Assembly (NCBI RefSeq): GCF_057098645.1
Contig: NZ_CM169472.1
DNA: 64,000 bases
Strand: one strand, 5' to 3'
This document shows, in pieces, positions 33,865 to 62,739 of this stretch. Position 1 is the stretch's first letter. Every line of letters starts with the position of its first letter. The notes beneath the pieces are model-generated. The model saw nothing but the letters and a program-made list of their open reading frames with translations. It had not been told where the DNA came from and searched no databases. The position numbers and the translations under genes were made by a program.

Positions 33865-33990
33865 ACGCTTTTCCTTGTGGATCTCAACTCGCCAGCACCT
33901 ATCTTACATGCCGGTCCGTATCAGAGATACTTTTTGAGTGGCTTTGCCGGTGATTAAAAATCAAGGAGGGTGTAACGACAAGTTGCAGGC

Positions 33991-34016
33991 ACAAAAAAAC
34001 CACCCGAAGGTGGTTT
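33991..34016 (-). terminator. rho-independent terminator at the original leuZ 3-prime flank
   Basis: aaaaaaaccaccc gaa ggtggttt hairpin; left copy of the repeat. Confidence 0.6.
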
Positions 34017-34059
34017 CACGACACTGCTTATTGCTTTGATTTTATTCTTATCTTTCCCA

Positions 34060-34115
34060 TGGTACCCGGAGCGGGACTTGAACCCGCACAGCGCGAACGC
34101 CGAGGGATTTTAAAT
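34060..34115 (-). other. tRNA-Leu 3-prime fragment (integration remnant)
   Basis: tggtacccggagcgggacttgaacccgcacagcgcgaacgccgagggattttaaat equals the 3-prime part of leuZ; 5-prime part replaced by island sequence. Confidence 0.85.
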
Positions 34116-44188: not shown

Positions 44189-45245
44189 GGCTTTGTTGAA
44201 TAAATCAGATTTCGGGTAAGTCTCCCCCGTAGCGGGTTGTGTTTTCAGGCAATACGCACGCTTTCAGGCATACCTGCTTTCGTCATTTTGTTCAGCGCTC
44301 GTACCAGGGCCATAGCCTCCGCAACCTGACCATCGTAGTCACGCAGCGTCAGTGAACCCCCGAACAGCTGTTTTACCCGGTACATCGCCGTTTCCGCTAT
44401 CGAGCGACGGTTGTAATCTGTTGTCCATTTCCACCGCGCATTACTCCCGGTCATTCGCTGATTAGCCACTGCACGGTTACGGTCTGCATATTCACCGGGC
44501 CAGTAGCCCGCACCTTTTCGGGGAGGGATAAGCGCGCTGATTTTCTTACGCCGCAGTTCATCGTGACATAGCCGGGTATCGTAAGCGCCATCGGCGGCGG
44601 CTGACCTGATTTTCCGGTGGGTTTGCCGGATTAACCCGGGGAAGGCCTCTGAGTCCGTAACGTTGTTCAGCGACAGGTCTGCACAGATGATTTCATGTGT
44701 TTTACTGTCAACGGCGAGATGCAGCTTACGCCAGATACGGCGGCGTTCCTGGCCATGCTTTTTGACTTTCCACTCGCCTTCACCGAAGACCTTCAGCCCG
44801 GTGGAATCAATCACCAGATGTGCGATTTCACCCCGGGTGGGCGTTTTGAAACTGACATTAACCGACTTTGCCCGCCTGCTGACACAGCTGTAATCCGGGC
44901 AGCGTAGCGGAACGTTCATCAGAGAAAAAATGGAATCAATAAAGCCCTGCGCAGCGCGCAGGGTCAGCCTGAATACGCGTTTAATGACCAGCACAGTCGT
45001 GATGGCAAGGTCAGAATAGCGCTGAGGTCTGCCTCGTGAAGAAGGTGTTGCTGACTCATACCAGGCCTGAATAGCTTCATCATCCAGCCAGAAAGTTATG
45101 GAGCCACGGTTGATGAGGGCTTTATTGTAGGTGGGCCAGTTGGTGATTTTGAACTTTTGCTTTGCCACGGAACGGTCTGCGTTGTCGGGAAGATGCGTGA
45201 TCTGATCCTTCAACTCAGCAAAAGTTCGATTTATTCAACAAAGCC
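44189..45245 (-). mobile_element. IS903-like element (IS5 family), copy 1, 1057 bp
   Basis: Terminal inverted repeats GGCTTTGTTGAATAAATC; 9-bp target duplication GTGAGAAGC at 44180-44188 and 45246-45254. Confidence 0.9.
44245..45213 (-). CDS. IS903-like transposase
   Basis: 322-aa ORF; recognised by eye as IS903/IS102-type transposase. Confidence 0.85.
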   Translation of the reverse strand: MKDQITHLPDNADRSVAKQKFKITNWPTYNKALINRGSITFWLDDEAIQAWYESATPSSRGRPQRYSDLAITTVLVIKRVFRLTLRAAQGFIDSIFSLMNVPLRCPDYSCVSRRAKSVNVSFKTPTRGEIAHLVIDSTGLKVFGEGEWKVKKHGQERRRIWRKLHLAVDSKTHEIICADLSLNNVTDSEAFPGLIRQTHRKIRSAAADGAYDTRLCHDELRRKKISALIPPRKGAGYWPGEYADRNRAVANQRMTGSNARWKWTTDYNRRSIAETAMYRVKQLFGGSLTLRDYDGQVAEAMALVRALNKMTKAGMPESVRIA

Positions 45246-55970: not shown

Positions 55971-56594
55971 AGTGCTCCTGGATTTTCTCTTTCTGGACAT
56001 TGACGTCTCCACTGGTTTAAACACGGCAATGGAGACTGTGGTGAAAAGAGTTAATTCCCGGAGTGACTGGCAGGATGCCAATCAATGATCGGAAGCATGC
56101 CAAATCGTGATCGATTGTGATGCCAAACTGTGATCGGAGATGGATGCCAAATCATGATCGATTCGAATGCCAAACTGCGATCGATTCAGATGCCATTTTG
56201 CAGCCGGGGGGGACGAACTCCCGGCATTTTTTCGGAGTTAACTATGAGCAATAATTTGCAGGACATCCTCGCTGCCGCATCGGGGTATCAGTCCGTGACT
56301 TCAGAGCCAGCGCTCAATCTTAAAAGACCTAAAACGCTTGATGATTATCCTGTGATACCACCTGCATCAAAAAAAGTATCTGTTATTTCAAGTGACCTGA
56401 CACTCCATATCGGTTTTGATACCGAATATGTTTTCAATCCTGAAACACAACAGAATGATATTCTGTCATATCAGAGTTATGTTGTCTTACCCGATAATAC
56501 AGGTATATCGAACATTATCTATCCACCTGACTCACAGAAAAAATCCCGGCTGTCTTTTAAGAACTTTCTCTGTCAAACGATTATGGATTTGCCC

Positions 56595-57500
56595 CTATAT
56601 TTCCAGACATCTGTTATCACTTAACCCATTACAAGCCCGCTGCCGCAGATATTCCCGTGGCGAGCGATAACCCAGCGCACTATGCGGATGCCATTCGTTA
56701 TAATGCTCGAACGCCTCTGCAAGGTTCTTTGCTGCCGTTAACCCGTCTGGTTTGGGCATGATACTGATGTAGTCACGCTTTATCGTTTTCACGAAGCTCT
56801 CTGCTATTCCGTTACTCTCCGGACTCCGCACCGCCGTGTTCTTCGGTTCAAGTCCCAACATCCGGGCGAACTGGCGTGTTTCATTAGCCCGGTAGCATGA
56901 ACCATTATCCGTCAGCCACTCCACTGGAGACGACGGAAGATCGTTGCCGAAGCGGCGTTCCACCGCTCCCAGCATGACGTCCTGTACTGTTTCACTGTTG
57001 AAGCCGCCGGTAGTCACCGCCCAGTGCAGTGCCTCACGATCACAGCAGTCCAGCGCGAACGTGACACGCAGTCTCTCTCCGTTATCACAGCAGAACTCGA
57101 ACCCGTCAGAGCACCATCGCTGATTGCTTTCTTTCACGGCCACTCTGCCTGTATGTGCCCGTTTCGATGGCGGTACAGCAGGTTTTCGCTCAAGCAACAG
57201 CGCATTCTGGCGCATGATCCGGTAAACACGTTTGGCATTGATCGCAGGCATACCATCAAGTTCTGCCTGTCTGCGAAGCAGCGCCCATACCCGACGATAA
57301 CCATACGTGGGCAGCTCTCCGATAACATGGTGTATACGGAGAAGCACATCCGTATCATCAGTGTGACGACTGCGGCGGCCATCCATCCAGTCATCGGTTC
57401 GTCTGAGAATGACGTGCAACTGCGCACGCGACACCCGGAGACAACGGCTGACTAAGCTTACTCCCCATCCCCGGGCAATAAGGGCGCGTGCGCTATCCAC
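56595..57500 (-). CDS. insD: IS2 transposase InsD
   Basis: 301-aa ORF. Confidence 0.85.
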
Positions 57501-57823
57501 TTTTTTGCCCGTCCATATTCAACGGCTTCTTTGAGGAGTTCATTTTCCATCGTTTTCTTGCCGAGCAGGCGCTGGAGTTCTTTAATCTGCTTCATGGCGG
57601 CAGCAAGTTCAGAGGCAGGAACAACCTGTTCTCCGGCGGCCACAGCAGTAAGACTTCCTTCCTGGTATTGCTTACGCCAGAGAAATAACTGGCTGGCTGC
57701 TACACCATGTTGCCGGGCAACGAGGGAGACCGTCATCCCCGGTTCAAAGCTCTGCTGAACAATTGCGATCTTTTCCTGTGTGGTACGCCGTCTGCGTTTC
57801 TCCGGCCCTAAGACATCAATCAT
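57458..57823 (-). CDS. insC: IS2 InsC
   Basis: Start at [13 protein letters not shown], 121 aa. Confidence 0.85.
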
Positions 57824-59974
57824 CTGTTCTCCAATGACTAGTCTAAAAACTAGTATTAAGACTATCACTTATTTAAGTGATACTGGTTGTCTGGAGATTC
57901 AGGGGGCCAGTCTAGATTACACCGCTTCTTGAAACGGGTGTGATTACAAAATGGCCCGGTATTATTAATATATATGCGCATTTCATTCGTGCGGATATCA
58001 CCTCCTTTGCCAATTTCTGGTCAGACTACAAAATTCTTCTGAAAGGAATACGCGGTACTGTCAGCAGCTTCAAAAATCGTTACGGTATCGATTTTGATGA
58101 ACAGCAGGAACGTCGCGTAAAGACTGAACAGATAATGTTTGACAAACGAACTTCCCCTCCGCGTTGCAGTAACGTAGCTTTCATCGATACACTGCTTATC
58201 ACTCCCGGGGGTATGGGTCTGGCTGAATGTGGTGAATTACTGGGTCTTCCCAAACTGACCATTCCTGCACCTTATTCCATAACCAATATGCGTGAATATC
58301 TTCTGGGCGACAGAGCAGGGTTTGAAGCCTATGCTCTGCGGGATGCCGAGATTGCGGTTCGTTATGCTTTACAGGTTCGCAATTTTTGCGCCCGGGAGCT
58401 GATGATTGATCGTGTCCCCGCCACCATCGGGGCGATGGCAGTTTCACGGTTCACCAAAACACTTAAAGAAAACAATATGTCTCCTGAAGTCTGCCTTGGG
58501 ACACACATTAAAACCCGTGAACTCTGGCTCACGGAGAAACAGGCATTCCGGACGATTAAAAACCCCGCCAGTGTTCCTTCAAGAGAGCTGTTTGAAACGT
58601 TCCCGATCAACTGTTACCACGGCGGACGCAATGAGTGTTTTATGATGGGGGTTACACCGTCTGATCACTGGTATGACTACGATCTGGCTGGAGCGTATAC
58701 CACCGGGCTATTAGATATCCTCATACCCGATTACGGAAACATCCGCCTCAGTAAAAATCCGGACGATTACTGTGGGCATGTAATGGGATTTGCGTTTGTC
58801 ACATTTCAGTTCCCGGAATCAGTTCCCTATCCCAGCCTGCCGGTTCGGACCGATCAATATGGGTTATTCTTTCCATTAAGTGGCGAATCATGGGCAACGG
58901 CACCTGAAATCGAACTTGCTCTGTCGCTCGGGGCAGAGATGACGATCCATAATGGGATCATCGTCCCCTGGATCTGTGACACCTCCCCACATAACAGCGA
59001 ATCAACATCGGTGTTTCTTCCCTTTGTTCAACAGGTCCGTGAGAACCGTAATCGCCATATTAAAGGTTCTCTGGAGGAGAAATTCTGGAAAGAAATTGGC
59101 AACTCGCTTTATGGCAAACTTGCTCAGGGCCTTCGCGCCAAAACCGCCTTTGATACTGCCCGTGGATTAAACAGATCCCTCCCACCATCATCGGTTACTC
59201 AGCCATTCTTTGCTGCGCATGTGACGGGATTTATCCGCGCCGTTGTCGGGGAACTCATGAATGCTTTGCCTTCTGATTCATCGGTTGTCAGCGTCACAAC
59301 CGATGGCTTTTTGACAAATTGCCCACTTAACAAGATAAACATGAGCGGTCCACTGTCTTCCCGCTTCCAGTCGCTGTGCGATATTGTTGATCCGGGTTCA
59401 TCAATGTTGACATGTAAGCATGAGGTCAGCCAGCTTATCGCCATGAAAACCCGGGGGCAGTTAACCTATAGAGCTATTCAGGGAAAACCTGTTGTTCATG
59501 CCAGGGCTGGCGTCAAACCTCCTGCCGATATTCCACGCAGTGACTATAACGACTATATGGTAGATCTTTACCTTAATCGTTTACCCGGTCAGACGTTATC
59601 CCGAAGTACGTTGATATCAACGCGTGAGATGTGGCTGTCGGAAAGCGATCTGGTATCCCGGGAACAGGATATCCGTCTTAATCTGGAATTCGATTTCAAA
59701 CGCCAGCCCGTACAGCCCGCCATGAATGAAGGGCATTTACTGATGTCTTCCCGCCCATGGGATAATATGGAAGAGGCTCTGCAGCAACGCTCTCTTTTCG
59801 ACGACTGGCGGCAAACGCATACACTGAAGACCCTGGCTGACTGGGATGACTGGTGTGATTTTCTCTATTGCCGGACGGTGTTTTCTGATATGAAACTAAA
59901 AGTCGGAAGCAAACGTAGTGATGATATTTTAGTCAGACTATTTCTCCGGGCGCTGACTCAGTGCCAATGGGGGC

Positions 59975-60523
59975 TTATGCTGAAAGATAAAAAAAGTTAT
60001 TCCTGTAAAGAGGTTGCTGAATGGCTGACGTCAGAAGGCTATTCAGTAACATGTCAAAAAGCACCTGCTGGATCTCCCGGGCCCGAAGGTCGCAGTAACG
60101 TATCTTCCCCAGACGAGGTTCAATGTATTGCGTGAAACGCTGAACATCCTTATCCCAGGACTTTTTATGGCGTTTGATGAACGGAACATAGGTCTGGTGA
60201 AAAAACTCACTAAGTGTTGGCATCGCACGATAATTATCGCGTTCTGCTTTAGGGTCATTTCCCAGTGCAATCGCCTCCTTGTGACGACGAGCTATCTGAC
60301 GGGCTGTCCCCACATCGATTTCAGGGAATCTGCCAATACTGATACTTTTTTTGGTACCGTGGAATGTGTAGCGCAGGAGGAAACGTTTGTTACCCGTTCG
60401 ACCTGAGAGACATTTGAGGCCTATGACCTCGGTATCTGATACCTCAAGCTCTGTAGATCGGGTATCTGTGTTTGCCGGAAGGGCTTTGATGGATGAATTG
60501 GTGAATCGGAAGGATTTTTGCAT
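59975..60523 (-). pseudogene. N-terminal fragment of a P4-type tyrosine integrase (arm-binding domain), truncated
   Basis: MQKSFRFTNSSIKALP ... GRFPEIDVGTARQIARRHKEAIALGNDP resembles integrase N-terminal domain; no catalytic domain follows; overlaps piPolB 3-prime end on the opposite strand. Confidence 0.5.
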
Positions 60524-60709
60524 ATTTATCCTCATGTATCTGATTGATATCATGAAAATAATATATATCTGAAGGTGTTTTTATTACGGGGCAGGATTGA
60601 AGAATGGAAAAGCTATTAGACGCGTACAAACGGATATTGCAGGAAGTTAACGCCCAGTCATTTAACCTGAATGAGGATAAATACTCAGGCGTCTTTTTAC
60701 CCGTGCCGT

Positions 60710-61766
60710 GGCTTTGTTGAATAAATCGAACTTTTGCTGAGTTGAAGGATCAGATCACGCATCTTCCCGACAACGCAGACCGTTCCGTGGCAAAGCAAAA
60801 GTTCAAAATCACCAACTGGCCCACCTACAATAAAGCCCTCATCAACCGTGGCTCCATAACTTTCTGGCTGGATGATGAAGCTATTCAGGCCTGGTATGAG
60901 TCAGCAACACCTTCTTCACGAGGCAGACCTCAGCGCTATTCTGACCTTGCCATCACGACTGTGCTGGTCATTAAACGCGTATTCAGGCTGACCCTGCGCG
61001 CTGCGCAGGGCTTTATTGATTCCATTTTTTCTCTGATGAACGTTCCGCTACGCTGCCCGGATTACAGCTGTGTCAGCAGGCGGGCAAAGTCGGTTAATGT
61101 CAGTTTCAAAACGCCCACCCGGGGTGAAATCGCACATCTGGTGATTGATTCCACCGGGCTGAAGGTCTTCGGTGAAGGCGAGTGGAAAGTCAAAAAGCAT
61201 GGCCAGGAACGCCGCCGTATCTGGCGTAAGCTGCATCTCGCCGTTGACAGTAAAACACATGAAATCATCTGTGCAGACCTGTCGCTGAACAACGTTACGG
61301 ACTCAGAGGCCTTCCCCGGGTTAATCCGGCAAACCCACCGGAAAATCAGGTCAGCCGCCGCCGATGGCGCTTACGATACCCGGCTATGTCACGATGAACT
61401 GCGGCGTAAGAAAATCAGCGCGCTTATCCCTCCCCGAAAAGGTGCGGGCTACTGGCCCGGTGAATATGCAGACCGTAACCGTGCAGTGGCTAATCAGCGA
61501 ATGACCGGGAGTAATGCGCGGTGGAAATGGACAACAGATTACAACCGTCGCTCGATAGCGGAAACGGCGATGTACCGGGTAAAACAGCTGTTCGGGGGTT
61601 CACTGACGCTGCGTGACTACGATGGTCAGGTTGCGGAGGCTATGGCCCTGGTACGAGCGCTGAACAAAATGACGAAAGCAGGTATGCCTGAAAGCGTGCG
61701 TATTGCCTGAAAACACAACCCGCTACGGGGGAGACTTACCCGAAATCTGATTTATTCAACAAAGCC
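60710..61766 (+). mobile_element. IS903-like element, copy 2, 1057 bp, inverted relative to copy 1
   Basis: Same inverted repeats; 9-bp target duplication CCGTGCCGT at 60701-60709 and 61767-61775. Confidence 0.9.
60742..61710 (+). CDS. IS903-like transposase
   Basis: 322-aa ORF identical in translation to the copy at 44245-45213. Confidence 0.85.
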   Translation: MKDQITHLPDNADRSVAKQKFKITNWPTYNKALINRGSITFWLDDEAIQAWYESATPSSRGRPQRYSDLAITTVLVIKRVFRLTLRAAQGFIDSIFSLMNVPLRCPDYSCVSRRAKSVNVSFKTPTRGEIAHLVIDSTGLKVFGEGEWKVKKHGQERRRIWRKLHLAVDSKTHEIICADLSLNNVTDSEAFPGLIRQTHRKIRSAAADGAYDTRLCHDELRRKKISALIPPRKGAGYWPGEYADRNRAVANQRMTGSNARWKWTTDYNRRSIAETAMYRVKQLFGGSLTLRDYDGQVAEAMALVRALNKMTKAGMPESVRIA

Positions 61767-62578
61767 CCGTGCCGTTTGAAGAATACTGGCATTCACCGAT
61801 AAAAATCATGCTGGTTGGACGTGAAACCGCAGGCTGGAATACGCTGAATGGTAAGAATACGATATCACGGGTGTTGGGACTTATACCTGACGTCACCATC
61901 GGGCAAGTGGTTGAAGAAGCTGTAGATCGTTACAGGAAACATCTTCCGGTACAAAATTATGGCACCGCCAACCTCAAATCACGTAGCCGCTTCACGCAAT
62001 ATCATTTCAGGCTGGCCCGGGAGCTTAATATTCTTCCCCAGGCAATCGTGTATGCCAATCTACTGGCGTGGGATTACGACGGACTGACCCCTCTCAATCG
62101 CCCTCAAAATGAAGTGCAGGAAGTCATATTAGCCTCGCTGAAGCTACTGGCGGTACAAATTAAACACCTTGAGCCTGATTTCATCATCTTTGCATCTGGA
62201 GCCCGGAGAACAGACTACATCATAAAACAGGTGCTTACTGAGCTAGGCGGCTATGAGACTTCTTCAGTCATTCCGGGGAAGCTGTGGGAGTTCAAAACAG
62301 GTAATACAATCTGTTTCAGAATTGCCCATCCAAGGGCTATGCGCGGACACCAGAAGTACAGAGATGAGGTGATTGCACGAATTAAGCAACTTTGTACTCA
62401 GGGTGGCTAGAGCATTACAGCTTGCTCAGCAGGGCCCCTTCCCGGAAGAGTACCGGAAAACAGGCAAAGCAACCTGGTTCTCTATGCTGGAGGCGACACG
62501 TTCGATTCGGCATTGCCAGGCTGGAGATTGCAGCTCATTGCACCCCGTGAGCACAGGATATGCACAGGACATGAATTT

Positions 62579-62708
62579 CAGGCACAAAAAAACCACCCGG
62601 AGGTGGTTTCACGACACTGCTTATTGCTTTGATTTTATTCTTATCTTTCCCATGGTACCCGGAGCGGGACTTGAACCCGCACAGCGCGAACGCCGAGGGA
62701 TTTTAAAT
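62579..62708. repeat. attR: 130-bp direct repeat (leuZ 3-prime part plus downstream flank)
   Basis: Matches 33986-34115 with 1 mismatch. Confidence 0.9.
62584..62609 (-). terminator. rho-independent terminator downstream of leuZ (copy within attR)
   Basis: aaaaaaaccaccc gga ggtggttt. Confidence 0.6.
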
Positions 62709-62739
62709 CCCTTGTGTCTACCGATTCCACCATCCGGGC
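62653..62739 (-). tRNA. leuZ: tRNA-Leu
   Basis: 87-nt sequence, reverse complement GCCCGGATGGTGGAATCGGTAGACACAAGGGATTTAAAATCCC...GGGTACCA. Confidence 0.9.

What the first reader, a model, noticed from the sequence alone, without database searches (positions are those of the whole stretch)
60604..62410. UDG-like gene interrupted near its 5-prime end by IS903
The upstream 35 codons (60604-60709) read in frame through the TSD into ORF 61769-62410. The reconstructed protein has motifs reminiscent of UDG families 4/5. UDG is a typical piPolB partner, so its presence supports the pipolin call.
Basis: partly seen in the sequence, partly recalled or inferred. Interest (0 to 1): 0.45.

Follow-up and report, generated by a model that had tools for sequence, protein, structure and literature searches.

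The report
IS903B-split UDG-like pipolin gene
A 246-codon gene for a uracil-DNA-glycosylase-fold protein, the last gene of an E. coli pipolin next to the leuZ tRNA, has been cut in two by a recent IS903B insertion; the gene and the element are already described, so this is an ordinary knock-out of a known but biochemically untested gene.

Summary
A 1057-bp IS903B (60710-61766, 18-bp inverted repeats, 9-bp target duplication CCGTGCCGT) sits after codon 35 of a gene. Removing it and one duplicate restores a 246-aa ORF that is 100% identical to an uninterrupted gene in E. coli O145:H28. None of 5426 complete E. coli genomes carries either junction, so this allele is private and recent.

[quoted passage not shown] It is under purifying selection (dN/dS 0.12-0.32). 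It is not tied to piPolB: 531 E. coli genomes carry it against about 294 with piPolB, and outside Enterobacterales it was never found near piPolB. The substrate is unknown. The split copy here is most likely null. Interest is low.

The parts
60604..60709 (+). 5' fragment of the UDG-like gene: codons 1-35 plus the first base of codon 36. Encodes helix 1 and the conserved DKYSGVFLP motif.
   Evidence: Same start as the PGAP CDS in O145 (L001 12006). S28, F31 and L32 are kept in 74-79 of 88 relatives.
60701..60709 (.). Left copy of the 9-bp target-site duplication CCGTGCCGT
60710..61766 (+). IS903B (IS5 family), 1057 bp, with 18-bp terminal inverted repeats at 60710-60727 and 61749-61766
   Evidence: It is 99.2% identical to a PGAP-annotated IS903B and 100% identical to a second copy at 44189-45245.
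60742..61710 (+). IS903B transposase ORF (322 codons from TTG)
   Evidence: Pfam DDE_Tnp_1_5 and DDE_Tnp_1; NCBIfam NF033579 at E 6e-107
61767..61775. Right copy of the 9-bp target-site duplication CCGTGCCGT. It contains the GTG (61769) that the ORF listing takes as the start of the 213-aa ORF.
61776..62410 (+). 3' fragment of the UDG-like gene: last two bases of codon 36 to the stop. Carries all three catalytic-type motifs: G50-R-E52-T-A-G-W56, Y-A-N130-L-L-A-W-D-Y and C-F-R217-I-A-H220-P221-R.
59975..60553 (-). Remnant of the P4/IntS-type integrase (Arm DNA-binding domain only). It is divergent from the UDG-like gene, and its 3' part overlaps the fused tail of piPolB.
   Evidence: Pfam Arm-DNA-bind_3 at E 8e-15. 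PGAP marks it as a pseudogene in O145. A full-length 1200-bp integrase sits at the same place in strain LR-45.
62579..62708 (.). attR: a 130-bp direct repeat that includes the 3' part of tRNA-Leu (leuZ, 62653-62739, minus strand). Its partner attL lies at 33986-34115.
   Evidence: 99.2% identity; tRNAs
33986..34115 (.). attL copy of the pipolin direct repeat. The element therefore spans about 33986-62708.
57915..60135 (+). 3' part of piPolB, the neighbouring hallmark gene. The 5' part is about 56244-56583, and the two parts are separated by a 1331-bp IS3-family element.
   Evidence: 100% identical to O145 piPolB (L001 9317-11537).
44189..45245 (-). Second copy of the same IS903B, 100% identical and in inverted orientation, with its own 9-bp duplication GTGAGAAGC. 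It splits the type I R-M hsdS gene.

Best explanation
The region is the last gene of a leuZ-integrated E. coli pipolin, and a recent simple transposition of IS903B has knocked it out. Shown: the IS landed after codon 35 and duplicated 9 bp. The pre-insertion sequence survives 100% identical in O145:H28 strains. [quoted passage not shown] A Glu-containing loop follows strand 1 (G-R/K/Q-E-T-x-G-W). An Asn ends strand 2 (N130, aligned by HMMER with the uracil-contacting Asn of the S. tokodaii enzyme). An R-x-x-H-P loop follows the last strand (H220, aligned with motif-B His). There is no Fe-S cluster. The gene evolves under purifying selection. Inferred: the intact protein is a monofunctional DNA glycosylase that flips out and excises a uracil-like pyrimidine (uracil or a modified U/T/C), leaving an abasic site. 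Inferred role, in order of my belief: about 0.4 that it is an island-borne enzyme acting on foreign or modified (phage) DNA, like Brig1/2/3; about 0.35 that it does uracil repair for the element's own DNA alongside piPolB; the rest is other or unknown. In this window the gene is most likely null. The 5' piece ends after 38 codons inside the IS. The 3' piece (213 codons from a GTG inside the duplication) has no Shine-Dalgarno sequence and no promoter-like site upstream, and it lacks a conserved, confidently folded N-terminal segment.
Against: No enzymatic data exist for any member of this family. The protein itself has no hit in Pfam, NCBIfam, PADLOC or PDB sequences. TM-scores to solved UDGs are modest (0.47-0.62), and only about 160 of 246 residues superpose. 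Motif A is not the canonical one of any family. I could not inspect model coordinates, so pocket geometry is untested. Expression of the 213-aa remnant was judged only by a crude consensus scan. The defence role rests on neighbourhoods that are mixed: some are defence genes and some are housekeeping genes.
Confidence: 0.85

Rival explanations
1. It is a bona fide family-4 ('type-4') uracil-DNA glycosylase, as the pipolin literature labels it. It would remove uracil from pipolin DNA as a replication/repair partner of piPolB.
For: The best structural and profile matches are family-4 enzymes. Asn130 is the residue type that reads uracil in UDGs (PMC11078745). In E. coli, C. koseri, Enterobacter and Buttiauxella it lies within 10 kb of piPolB. 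It is called a type-4 UDG in PMC7385651.
Against: The four Fe-S cysteines that define families 4/5 are absent. Only two alignment columns reach 50% Cys or more. Motif A is G-R-E-T-A-G-W, not GE(A/G)PG. About 45% of E. coli genomes with the gene lack this piPolB. No piPolB lies within 10 kb in any of the 43 non-piPolB loci (47 scanned).
Confidence: 0.3
2. It is an antiviral (or toxin-like) DNA glycosylase of the Brig1/Brig2/Brig3 kind. It would excise a modified pyrimidine found in phage DNA and is carried as a single-gene cassette by islands and transposons.
For: Its profile matches that of Brig1: about 250 aa, no family annotation, and 4ZBY as the best structural match (against PMC11078745). 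It has defence neighbours: Mrr plus type I R-M in Proteus; Mrr, PDDEXK_4 and HNH in Pectobacterium; PDDEXK_4 in Photobacterium and WYL in Alteromonas; HNH plus AAA ATPase in E. coli KGu016. It occurs as Tn7-like cargo. Pipolins are described as defence islands (PMC11551731). In 19 loci a translationally coupled 109-aa partner is present, and two of its top three weak fold matches are the immunity-protein chains EsaG and BH3703.
Confidence: 0.35
3. The 213-codon ORF 61769-62410 is still a working, N-terminally shortened gene, expressed from the IS or by read-through.
For: The ORF is open, starts at a GTG created in the duplication, and keeps all three catalytic-type motifs.
Against: There is no Shine-Dalgarno sequence before the GTG (sequence). 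No promoter-like site sits at the IS right end. The missing 35 residues are well folded in the model and conserved. PGAP treats the similar 5'-truncated copies in other strains as pseudogenes.
Confidence: 0.07
4. The UDG fold is retained, but the protein is not a glycosylase (for example a DNA-binding or regulatory factor for the neighbouring integrase).
Against: Near-invariance of exactly the Glu, Asn and His-Pro positions used for catalysis and base contact in UDGs. The gene occurs far from any integrase in several genomes.
Confidence: 0.1

Closest known systems
The 'UDG' of E. coli pipolins (Flament-Simon et al. 2020, PMC7385651; Redrejo-Rodriguez et al. 2017, PMC5695915; Mateo-Caceres et al. 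2024, PMC11551731)
   Same: It is the same gene. It is the last gene at the right end of the element, next to the integrase and the leuZ att site, and 100% identical to the O145:H28 copy.
   Different: Here it is split by IS903B, an allele not seen in 5426 complete genomes. The published label 'type-4' is not borne out by the defining features.
Family 4 uracil-DNA glycosylases (UDGa: T. maritima 1L9G, T. thermophilus 1UI0, S. tokodaii 4ZBX/4ZBY)
   Different: No [4Fe-4S] cysteines. Motif A has a different register (G-R-E-T-x-G-W). It is about 50 residues longer, with an N-terminal helix plus a DKYSGxFLP segment and an insertion at residues 60-125. Identity is about 13%. It falls below Pfam UDG thresholds.
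Brig1, Brig2 and Brig3, antiviral UDG-superfamily glycosylases (PMC11078745; bioRxiv 10.1101/2025.10.29.685425; bioRxiv 10.64898/2026.02.25.707755)
   Same: Single-domain proteins of about 250 aa with a divergent UDG fold, unannotated by sequence, carried on islands and mobile elements. 4ZBY is the best structural match for Brig1 as well.
   Different: No detectable sequence relationship to Brig1. At the base-contact position this protein has Asn where Brig1 has Glu147. No phenotype is known. Relationships to Brig2 and Brig3 could not be tested.
IS903 / IS903B (IS5 family; the flanking element of Tn903)
   Same: 1057 bp, 18-bp inverted repeats, 9-bp duplication, DDE transposase.
   Different: Nothing unusual in the IS itself. 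Two identical inverted copies 15.4 kb apart mimic Tn903 architecture, but each has its own duplication.

Membership tests
UDG superfamily (alpha/beta-fold DNA glycosylases) | Four-stranded parallel-sheet alpha/beta fold shared by families 1-6, UdgX and SMUG2 | tested here: met
   [not shown]
UDG superfamily (alpha/beta-fold DNA glycosylases) | Sequence-level homology to a recognised UDG (Pfam PF03167 or a solved UDG) | tested here: met
   The protein alone has no hit, and the 34-member profile has none. The 88-member profile hits 4zbx at E 1.9e-6. 44 of 88 members touch PF03167 at E below 1, best 6.7e-6.
UDG superfamily (alpha/beta-fold DNA glycosylases) | N-glycosidic bond hydrolysis on DNA | not testable with these tools
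   No biochemical data were found for any member.
Family 4 UDG (UDGa) | Four conserved Cys ligating a [4Fe-4S] cluster | tested here: not met
   The protein has 2 Cys. In 88 relatives only columns 133 (50% Cys) and 215 (78% Cys) are Cys-rich.
Family 4 UDG (UDGa) | Motif A GE(A/G)PG directly after strand 1 | tested here: not met
   The sequence is V-G50-R-E52-T-A-G-W56. Glu is present but offset, and there is no Pro. The family-4 motif is from established knowledge.
Family 4 UDG (UDGa) | Motif B H-P-(S/A) after the last strand, and Asn after strand 2 | tested here: met
   H220-P221-R/S and N130 are aligned by HMMER to 'YHPAA' and 'ITNVV' of 4zbx. Each is kept in at least 85 of 88 relatives.
Family 5 UDG (UDGb) | Motif A GLAPA (no polar catalytic residue) plus an Fe-S cluster | tested here: not met
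   [not shown]
E. coli pipolin right-end 'UDG' | Last gene before attR/leuZ, divergent from the integrase, inside an element that carries piPolB | tested here: met
   Gene order piPolB, integrase remnant, this gene, tRNA-Leu, in the window and in O145. Literature description.
IS903 group of the IS5 family | About 1057 bp, 18-bp terminal inverted repeats, 9-bp target duplication, single DDE transposase | tested here: met
   99.2% identical to a PGAP-annotated IS903B.
Brig1 family (alpha-glucosyl-5hmC glycosylase) | Detectable homology to Brig1, with base-contact Glu147 and stacking Tyr121 | tested here: not met
   hhalign of the family alignment against Brig1 gives probability 0.2% and E 0.33. 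The only aligned stretch puts Asn130 opposite Glu147. The Brig1 sequence came from the paper's supplement.
Brig2 family (thymidine-hypermodification glycosylase) | Homology to Brig2 | not testable with these tools
   The Brig2 sequence and accession are not in the held text, and Table S9 is truncated.

The most novel reading that the evidence does not exclude
The so-called pipolin UDG may not be a repair partner of piPolB. It may be the founding, uncharacterised member of an Fe-S-less UDG-superfamily clade (about 460 clusters at 50% identity). This clade moves as a one-gene cassette, or as a two-gene cassette with a 109-aa inhibitor-like partner, between integrative islands, Tn7-like transposons and pipolins. 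It would excise a uracil- or thymine-derived modified base from invading phage DNA, which would make it a Brig-type immune glycosylase present in about 10% of E. coli.
Probability: 0.3. Interest if true: 0.6.

Novelty: already known. Interest (0 to 1): 0.2.

Why it matters
As found, it matters little: it is one more IS knock-out in a decaying mobile element. In this window the pipolin's hsdS, piPolB and UDG-like genes are all IS-split. Three points are still useful. (1) The published 'type-4 UDG' label for this common E. coli gene is not supported by the family's defining features. (2) The gene is about twice as frequent in E. coli as piPolB, so it should not be used on its own to call a pipolin. 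(3) The family is a reasonable candidate for the growing class of antiviral UDG-fold glycosylases, and this is cheap to test with the intact O145 allele.

Tried and rejected
- Direct family searches of the 246-aa protein found nothing in Pfam, NCBIfam or PADLOC. PHROGs returned only an unannotated family, phrog_29550.
- PDB sequence searches with the single protein and with the close-homologue profile A1 gave no UDG hit. Only the broader profile A2 worked.
- hhalign against Brig1 was not significant.
- The Brig2 sequence was sought in the preprint and its supplements and not found.
It was rerun with A1.
- Both IS/gene junctions were searched in 5426 E. coli genomes and no record carries either.
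- I first read 28-aa tblastn hits (piPolB residues 824-851) beside the gene in four loci as piPolB remnants. I rejected this. That tail of the O145-type piPolB is encoded antisense to the integrase remnant, so the hits are just integrase DNA.
- I first took the LR-45 'hypothetical protein' for a second piPolB type. The search showed it is the same gene set, 294 genomes at 99% identity or more.
- The promoter/terminator scan found nothing above shuffle expectation.

Full report
OBSERVATION.
- An ATG at 60604, preceded by AGGA 8 nt upstream, opens a frame. That frame is broken after 106 nt by a 1057-bp element (60710-61766).
- The element has identical 18-bp terminal inverted repeats (GGCTTTGTTGAATAAATC). 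It is flanked by a perfect 9-bp direct duplication, CCGTGCCGT (60701-60709 and 61767-61775).
- Its single ORF (60742-61710, +) matches the Pfam DDE_Tnp_1_5 and DDE_Tnp_1 domains and the IS5-family equivalog NF033579 at E 6e-107.
- The element is 99.2% identical to a copy that PGAP names IS903B in another E. coli.
- Deleting the IS and one duplicate joins T(60709) to TT(61776-61777). This gives a 741-nt, 246-codon ORF ending at TAG 62408-62410.

The joined frame is not a chance read-through.
- The reconstructed DNA is 100% identical over its whole length to an uninterrupted, annotated CDS in more than 20 complete genomes, mostly O145:H28.
- The window flanks align to that empty site at 100% and 99.9% identity, with the 9-10 bp overlap expected of a target duplication.
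- Homologues of 242-256 aa cover residues 1-246, so the 35-codon stub is part of the gene.
- Neither junction occurs in any of 5426 complete E. coli genomes.
- The IS is 100% identical to a second copy in the window. The insertion is therefore recent and private.

WHAT THE GENE ENCODES. Direct sequence searches of the protein fail.
- There is no hit in Pfam, NCBIfam, PADLOC or PDB sequences. PHROGs returns only an unannotated family.
- A profile of 34 close homologues also finds no solved relative.

Structure settles the fold.
- An AlphaFold2 model built on that alignment has mean pLDDT 90.1 and pTM 0.89.
- In Foldseek against the PDB, all 50 best matches are UDG-superfamily enzymes: family 4, UdgX, SMUG1 and TDG. 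The best is S. tokodaii 4ZBY at E 1.8e-6.

A wider search confirms the link at sequence level.
- An exhaustive profile search found 462 clusters at 50% identity.
- A profile of 88 diverse members hits the S. tokodaii family-4 enzyme at E 1.9e-6.
- 44 of those 88 members touch Pfam PF03167, while no other family is touched by more than 2.
- The HMMER alignment places N130 on the enzyme's base-reading Asn ('ITNVV') and H220-P221 on motif B ('YHPAA').
- Across the 88 sequences, which go down to about 22% identity, G50, S156 and P169 are invariant. E52, W56, N130, W206, F208, R217, H220 and P221 are kept in at least 90%.

FAMILY ASSIGNMENT. It should not be filed in family 4 or 5.
- Those families are defined by four cysteines holding a [4Fe-4S] cluster and by motif A, GE(A/G)PG or GLAPA (established knowledge).
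- This protein has two cysteines. In the family only two columns are Cys-rich (50% and 78%), and the other ligand positions are not conserved.
- Motif A reads G-[RKQ]-E-T-x-G-W.
- The protein is also about 50 residues longer than family-4 enzymes. It has an N-terminal helix plus a conserved DKYSGxFLP segment.
[quoted passage not shown] The location matches, but the family label does not survive the test.

IS THE INTACT GENE FUNCTIONAL? Eleven pairwise comparisons of the O145 allele with copies from E. coli, Citrobacter, Enterobacter, Franconibacter, Buttiauxella, Pectobacterium, Kosakonia and [Erwinia] give dN/dS of 0.12-0.32, at dS up to 1.5. This indicates purifying selection on a protein.

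IS THE SPLIT GENE DEAD? Most likely yes.
- The 5' piece terminates after 38 codons inside the IS.
- The 3' piece can only start at a GTG inside the duplication. It has no Shine-Dalgarno sequence, and no promoter-like site reads out of the IS (a crude scan).
- It would lack 35 residues that are modelled at high confidence (pLDDT 96, 96 and 90 for the first three 10-residue blocks (residues 1-30) and 94 for the fourth (31-40)). Those residues contain S28, F31 and L32, conserved in 74-79 of 88 relatives.
- Expression was not measured.

CONTEXT IN THE WINDOW.
- The gene is the last one before a 130-bp direct repeat (62579-62708). That repeat includes the 3' part of tRNA-Leu(taa) and recurs at 33986-34115. 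This delimits an element of about 28.7 kb between yecA and leuZ-cysT-glyW-pgsA-uvrC.
- Upstream lie a remnant of a P4-type integrase (Arm domain only, 59975-60553, minus strand) and piPolB.
- The window's piPolB is itself split by a 1331-bp IS3-family element at 56584-57914, with a 5-bp overlap of the flanks.
- The type I R-M hsdS gene is split by the other IS903B copy (44189-45245, own duplication GTGAGAAGC).
- The element is otherwise 100% identical to the O145:H28 pipolin over the compared segments. It is a decaying copy of a known element.

IS IT A 'piPolB PARTNER'? In E. coli-type pipolins it is, but the link is loose.
- Within E. coli, the gene is found in 531 of 5426 complete genomes. 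The central 1.9-2.0 kb of piPolB is found in 293-294.
- Three examples show the range. Strain KGu016 has yecA, HNH endonuclease, AAA ATPase, integrase remnant, this gene and leuZ, with no piPolB. ECONIH1-type strains have piPolB and the first ~100-105 nt of this gene deleted next to an IS3-family element. Strain LR-45 has a full-length integrase divergent from the gene.
- In a scan of one genome per species, 47 loci were recovered, all from Gammaproteobacteria. A true piPolB lies within 10 kb in only four: C. koseri, an Enterobacter MAG and two Buttiauxella. All four carry copies at least 93% identical to the E. coli protein.
- In the 50-58%-identity clade, 19 loci instead have a conserved 109-aa gene immediately upstream, usually with stop/start overlap. 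This clade includes Stutzerimonas, Marinobacter, Pseudoalteromonas, Halomonas and Methylotuvimicrobium.

Neighbourhoods elsewhere are heterogeneous.
- Defence-like or mobile: Mrr plus type I R-M (Proteus). Mrr, PDDEXK_4 and HNH (Pectobacterium). A helicase/DUF6361 cluster plus HIT and NOV_C (Marinobacter). Tn7-like cargo (Pseudoalteromonas). PDDEXK_4 and WYL/WCX. A P4-type integrase, RNA ligase plus HD kinase, and a Y-family polymerase fragment.
- Plain housekeeping genes also occur as neighbours.
- The gene therefore raises the odds of a pipolin in E. coli roughly tenfold (55% against 5%), but it is not diagnostic.

HOW IT MOST LIKELY WORKS.
- Shown: the fold, the conserved Glu/Asn/His-Pro positions, selection, and mobility.
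- Inferred: a monofunctional glycosylase that flips out a uracil-like pyrimidine. An Asn at the base-contact position is the uracil- or thymine-reading choice, whereas Brig1, which reads a cytosine derivative, uses Glu147 (PMC11078745; alignment).
- Role, first reading: repair of the element's own DNA with piPolB, which is the literature's implicit view.
- Role, second reading: island-borne excision of modified phage bases, as shown for the UDG-fold enzymes Brig1, Brig2 and Brig3.
- The second reading is slightly favoured by the gene's independence from piPolB, its cassette-like mobility, its frequent defence neighbours, the description of pipolins as defence islands (PMC11551731), and its Brig1-like profile (unannotated, about 250 aa, 4ZBY as best match).
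- No homology to Brig1 is detectable. Brig2 could not be compared. There is no phenotype. I put defence at about 0.35-0.4, repair at about 0.3-0.35, and a non-catalytic role at about 0.1.

NOVELTY AND VERDICT. The gene, the element and the IS are all described. The only new item is a private IS903B allele. The useful by-products are the correction of the 'type-4' label, the 531-against-294 count, and a testable defence hypothesis for an uncharacterised UDG clade. Interest 0.2; novelty: already known.

Noticed in passing
window 44189-45245 and 60710-61766: Two 100% identical IS903B copies lie in inverted orientation and bracket 15.4 kb. That segment holds hsdS-5'/hsdM, a recombinase, another IS, piPolB, the integrase remnant and the UDG 5' end. 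The layout resembles a Tn903-like composite. Each copy has its own 9-bp duplication (GTGAGAAGC and CCGTGCCGT), so they inserted separately and no inversion between them has occurred. The first copy splits the type I R-M hsdS gene (201-aa and 203-aa halves).
   Followed up: partly
window 56584-57914 (piPolB about 56244-56583 plus 57915-60135): The pipolin hallmark gene piPolB is itself interrupted, about 340 nt into the gene, by a 1331-bp IS3-family element. Its ORFs carry rve and HTH_Tnp_1 domains and lie on the minus strand. The flanks overlap by 5 bp, which is IS2-like. The O145 reference copy is uninterrupted.
   Followed up: partly
window 59975-60135; L001 11449-11537; L061 6721-7920: The last ~28 codons (~53 by the raw ORF overlap 59975-60135) of this piPolB are encoded antisense to the truncated integrase gene. 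Strain LR-45 has a full 1200-bp integrase with piPolB ending about 1.8 kb further upstream. So the O145/window lineage carries a deletion that fused the piPolB 3' end onto the integrase Arm-domain remnant and removed the integrase catalytic domain. tblastn 'piPolB remnants' (residues 824-851) next to the gene in other genomes are really integrase DNA.
   Followed up: partly
L059 8990-9010, L060 8995-9010 (E. coli JBEHAAB-19-0176, ECONIH1): A second, independent disruption occurs at almost the same spot. In 6 of 40 evenly spaced hits the gene starts at nt 100-106, directly abutting a frameshifted IS3-family element, and about 14 kb (integrase, piPolB, UDG 5' end) is deleted. The breakpoint falls inside the 9-bp IS903B target of this window (nt 98-106). 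Whether this is coincidence or a hotspot is unexplained.
   Followed up: partly
[not shown]
   Followed up: partly
E. coli genome collection: The UDG-like gene is present in 531 of 5426 complete E. coli genomes, whereas piPolB is present in only 293-294. The integrase plus UDG-like right-end module at leuZ outlives piPolB or exists without it.
   Followed up: partly
L062 5082-8732 (E. coli KGu016): A minimal leuZ island of about 4 kb lies between yecA and leuZ. It carries an HNH endonuclease, an AAA-family ATPase (a Septu-like pair by annotation), the integrase remnant and the UDG-like gene, with no piPolB.
   Followed up: no
L011 7255-8738 (Pseudescherichia sp., metagenome contig): Here the UDG-like gene lies directly beside yecA and is followed by small unannotated ORFs and P2-like tail genes (sheath, tube). 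A prophage or satellite appears to occupy the same locus.
   Followed up: no
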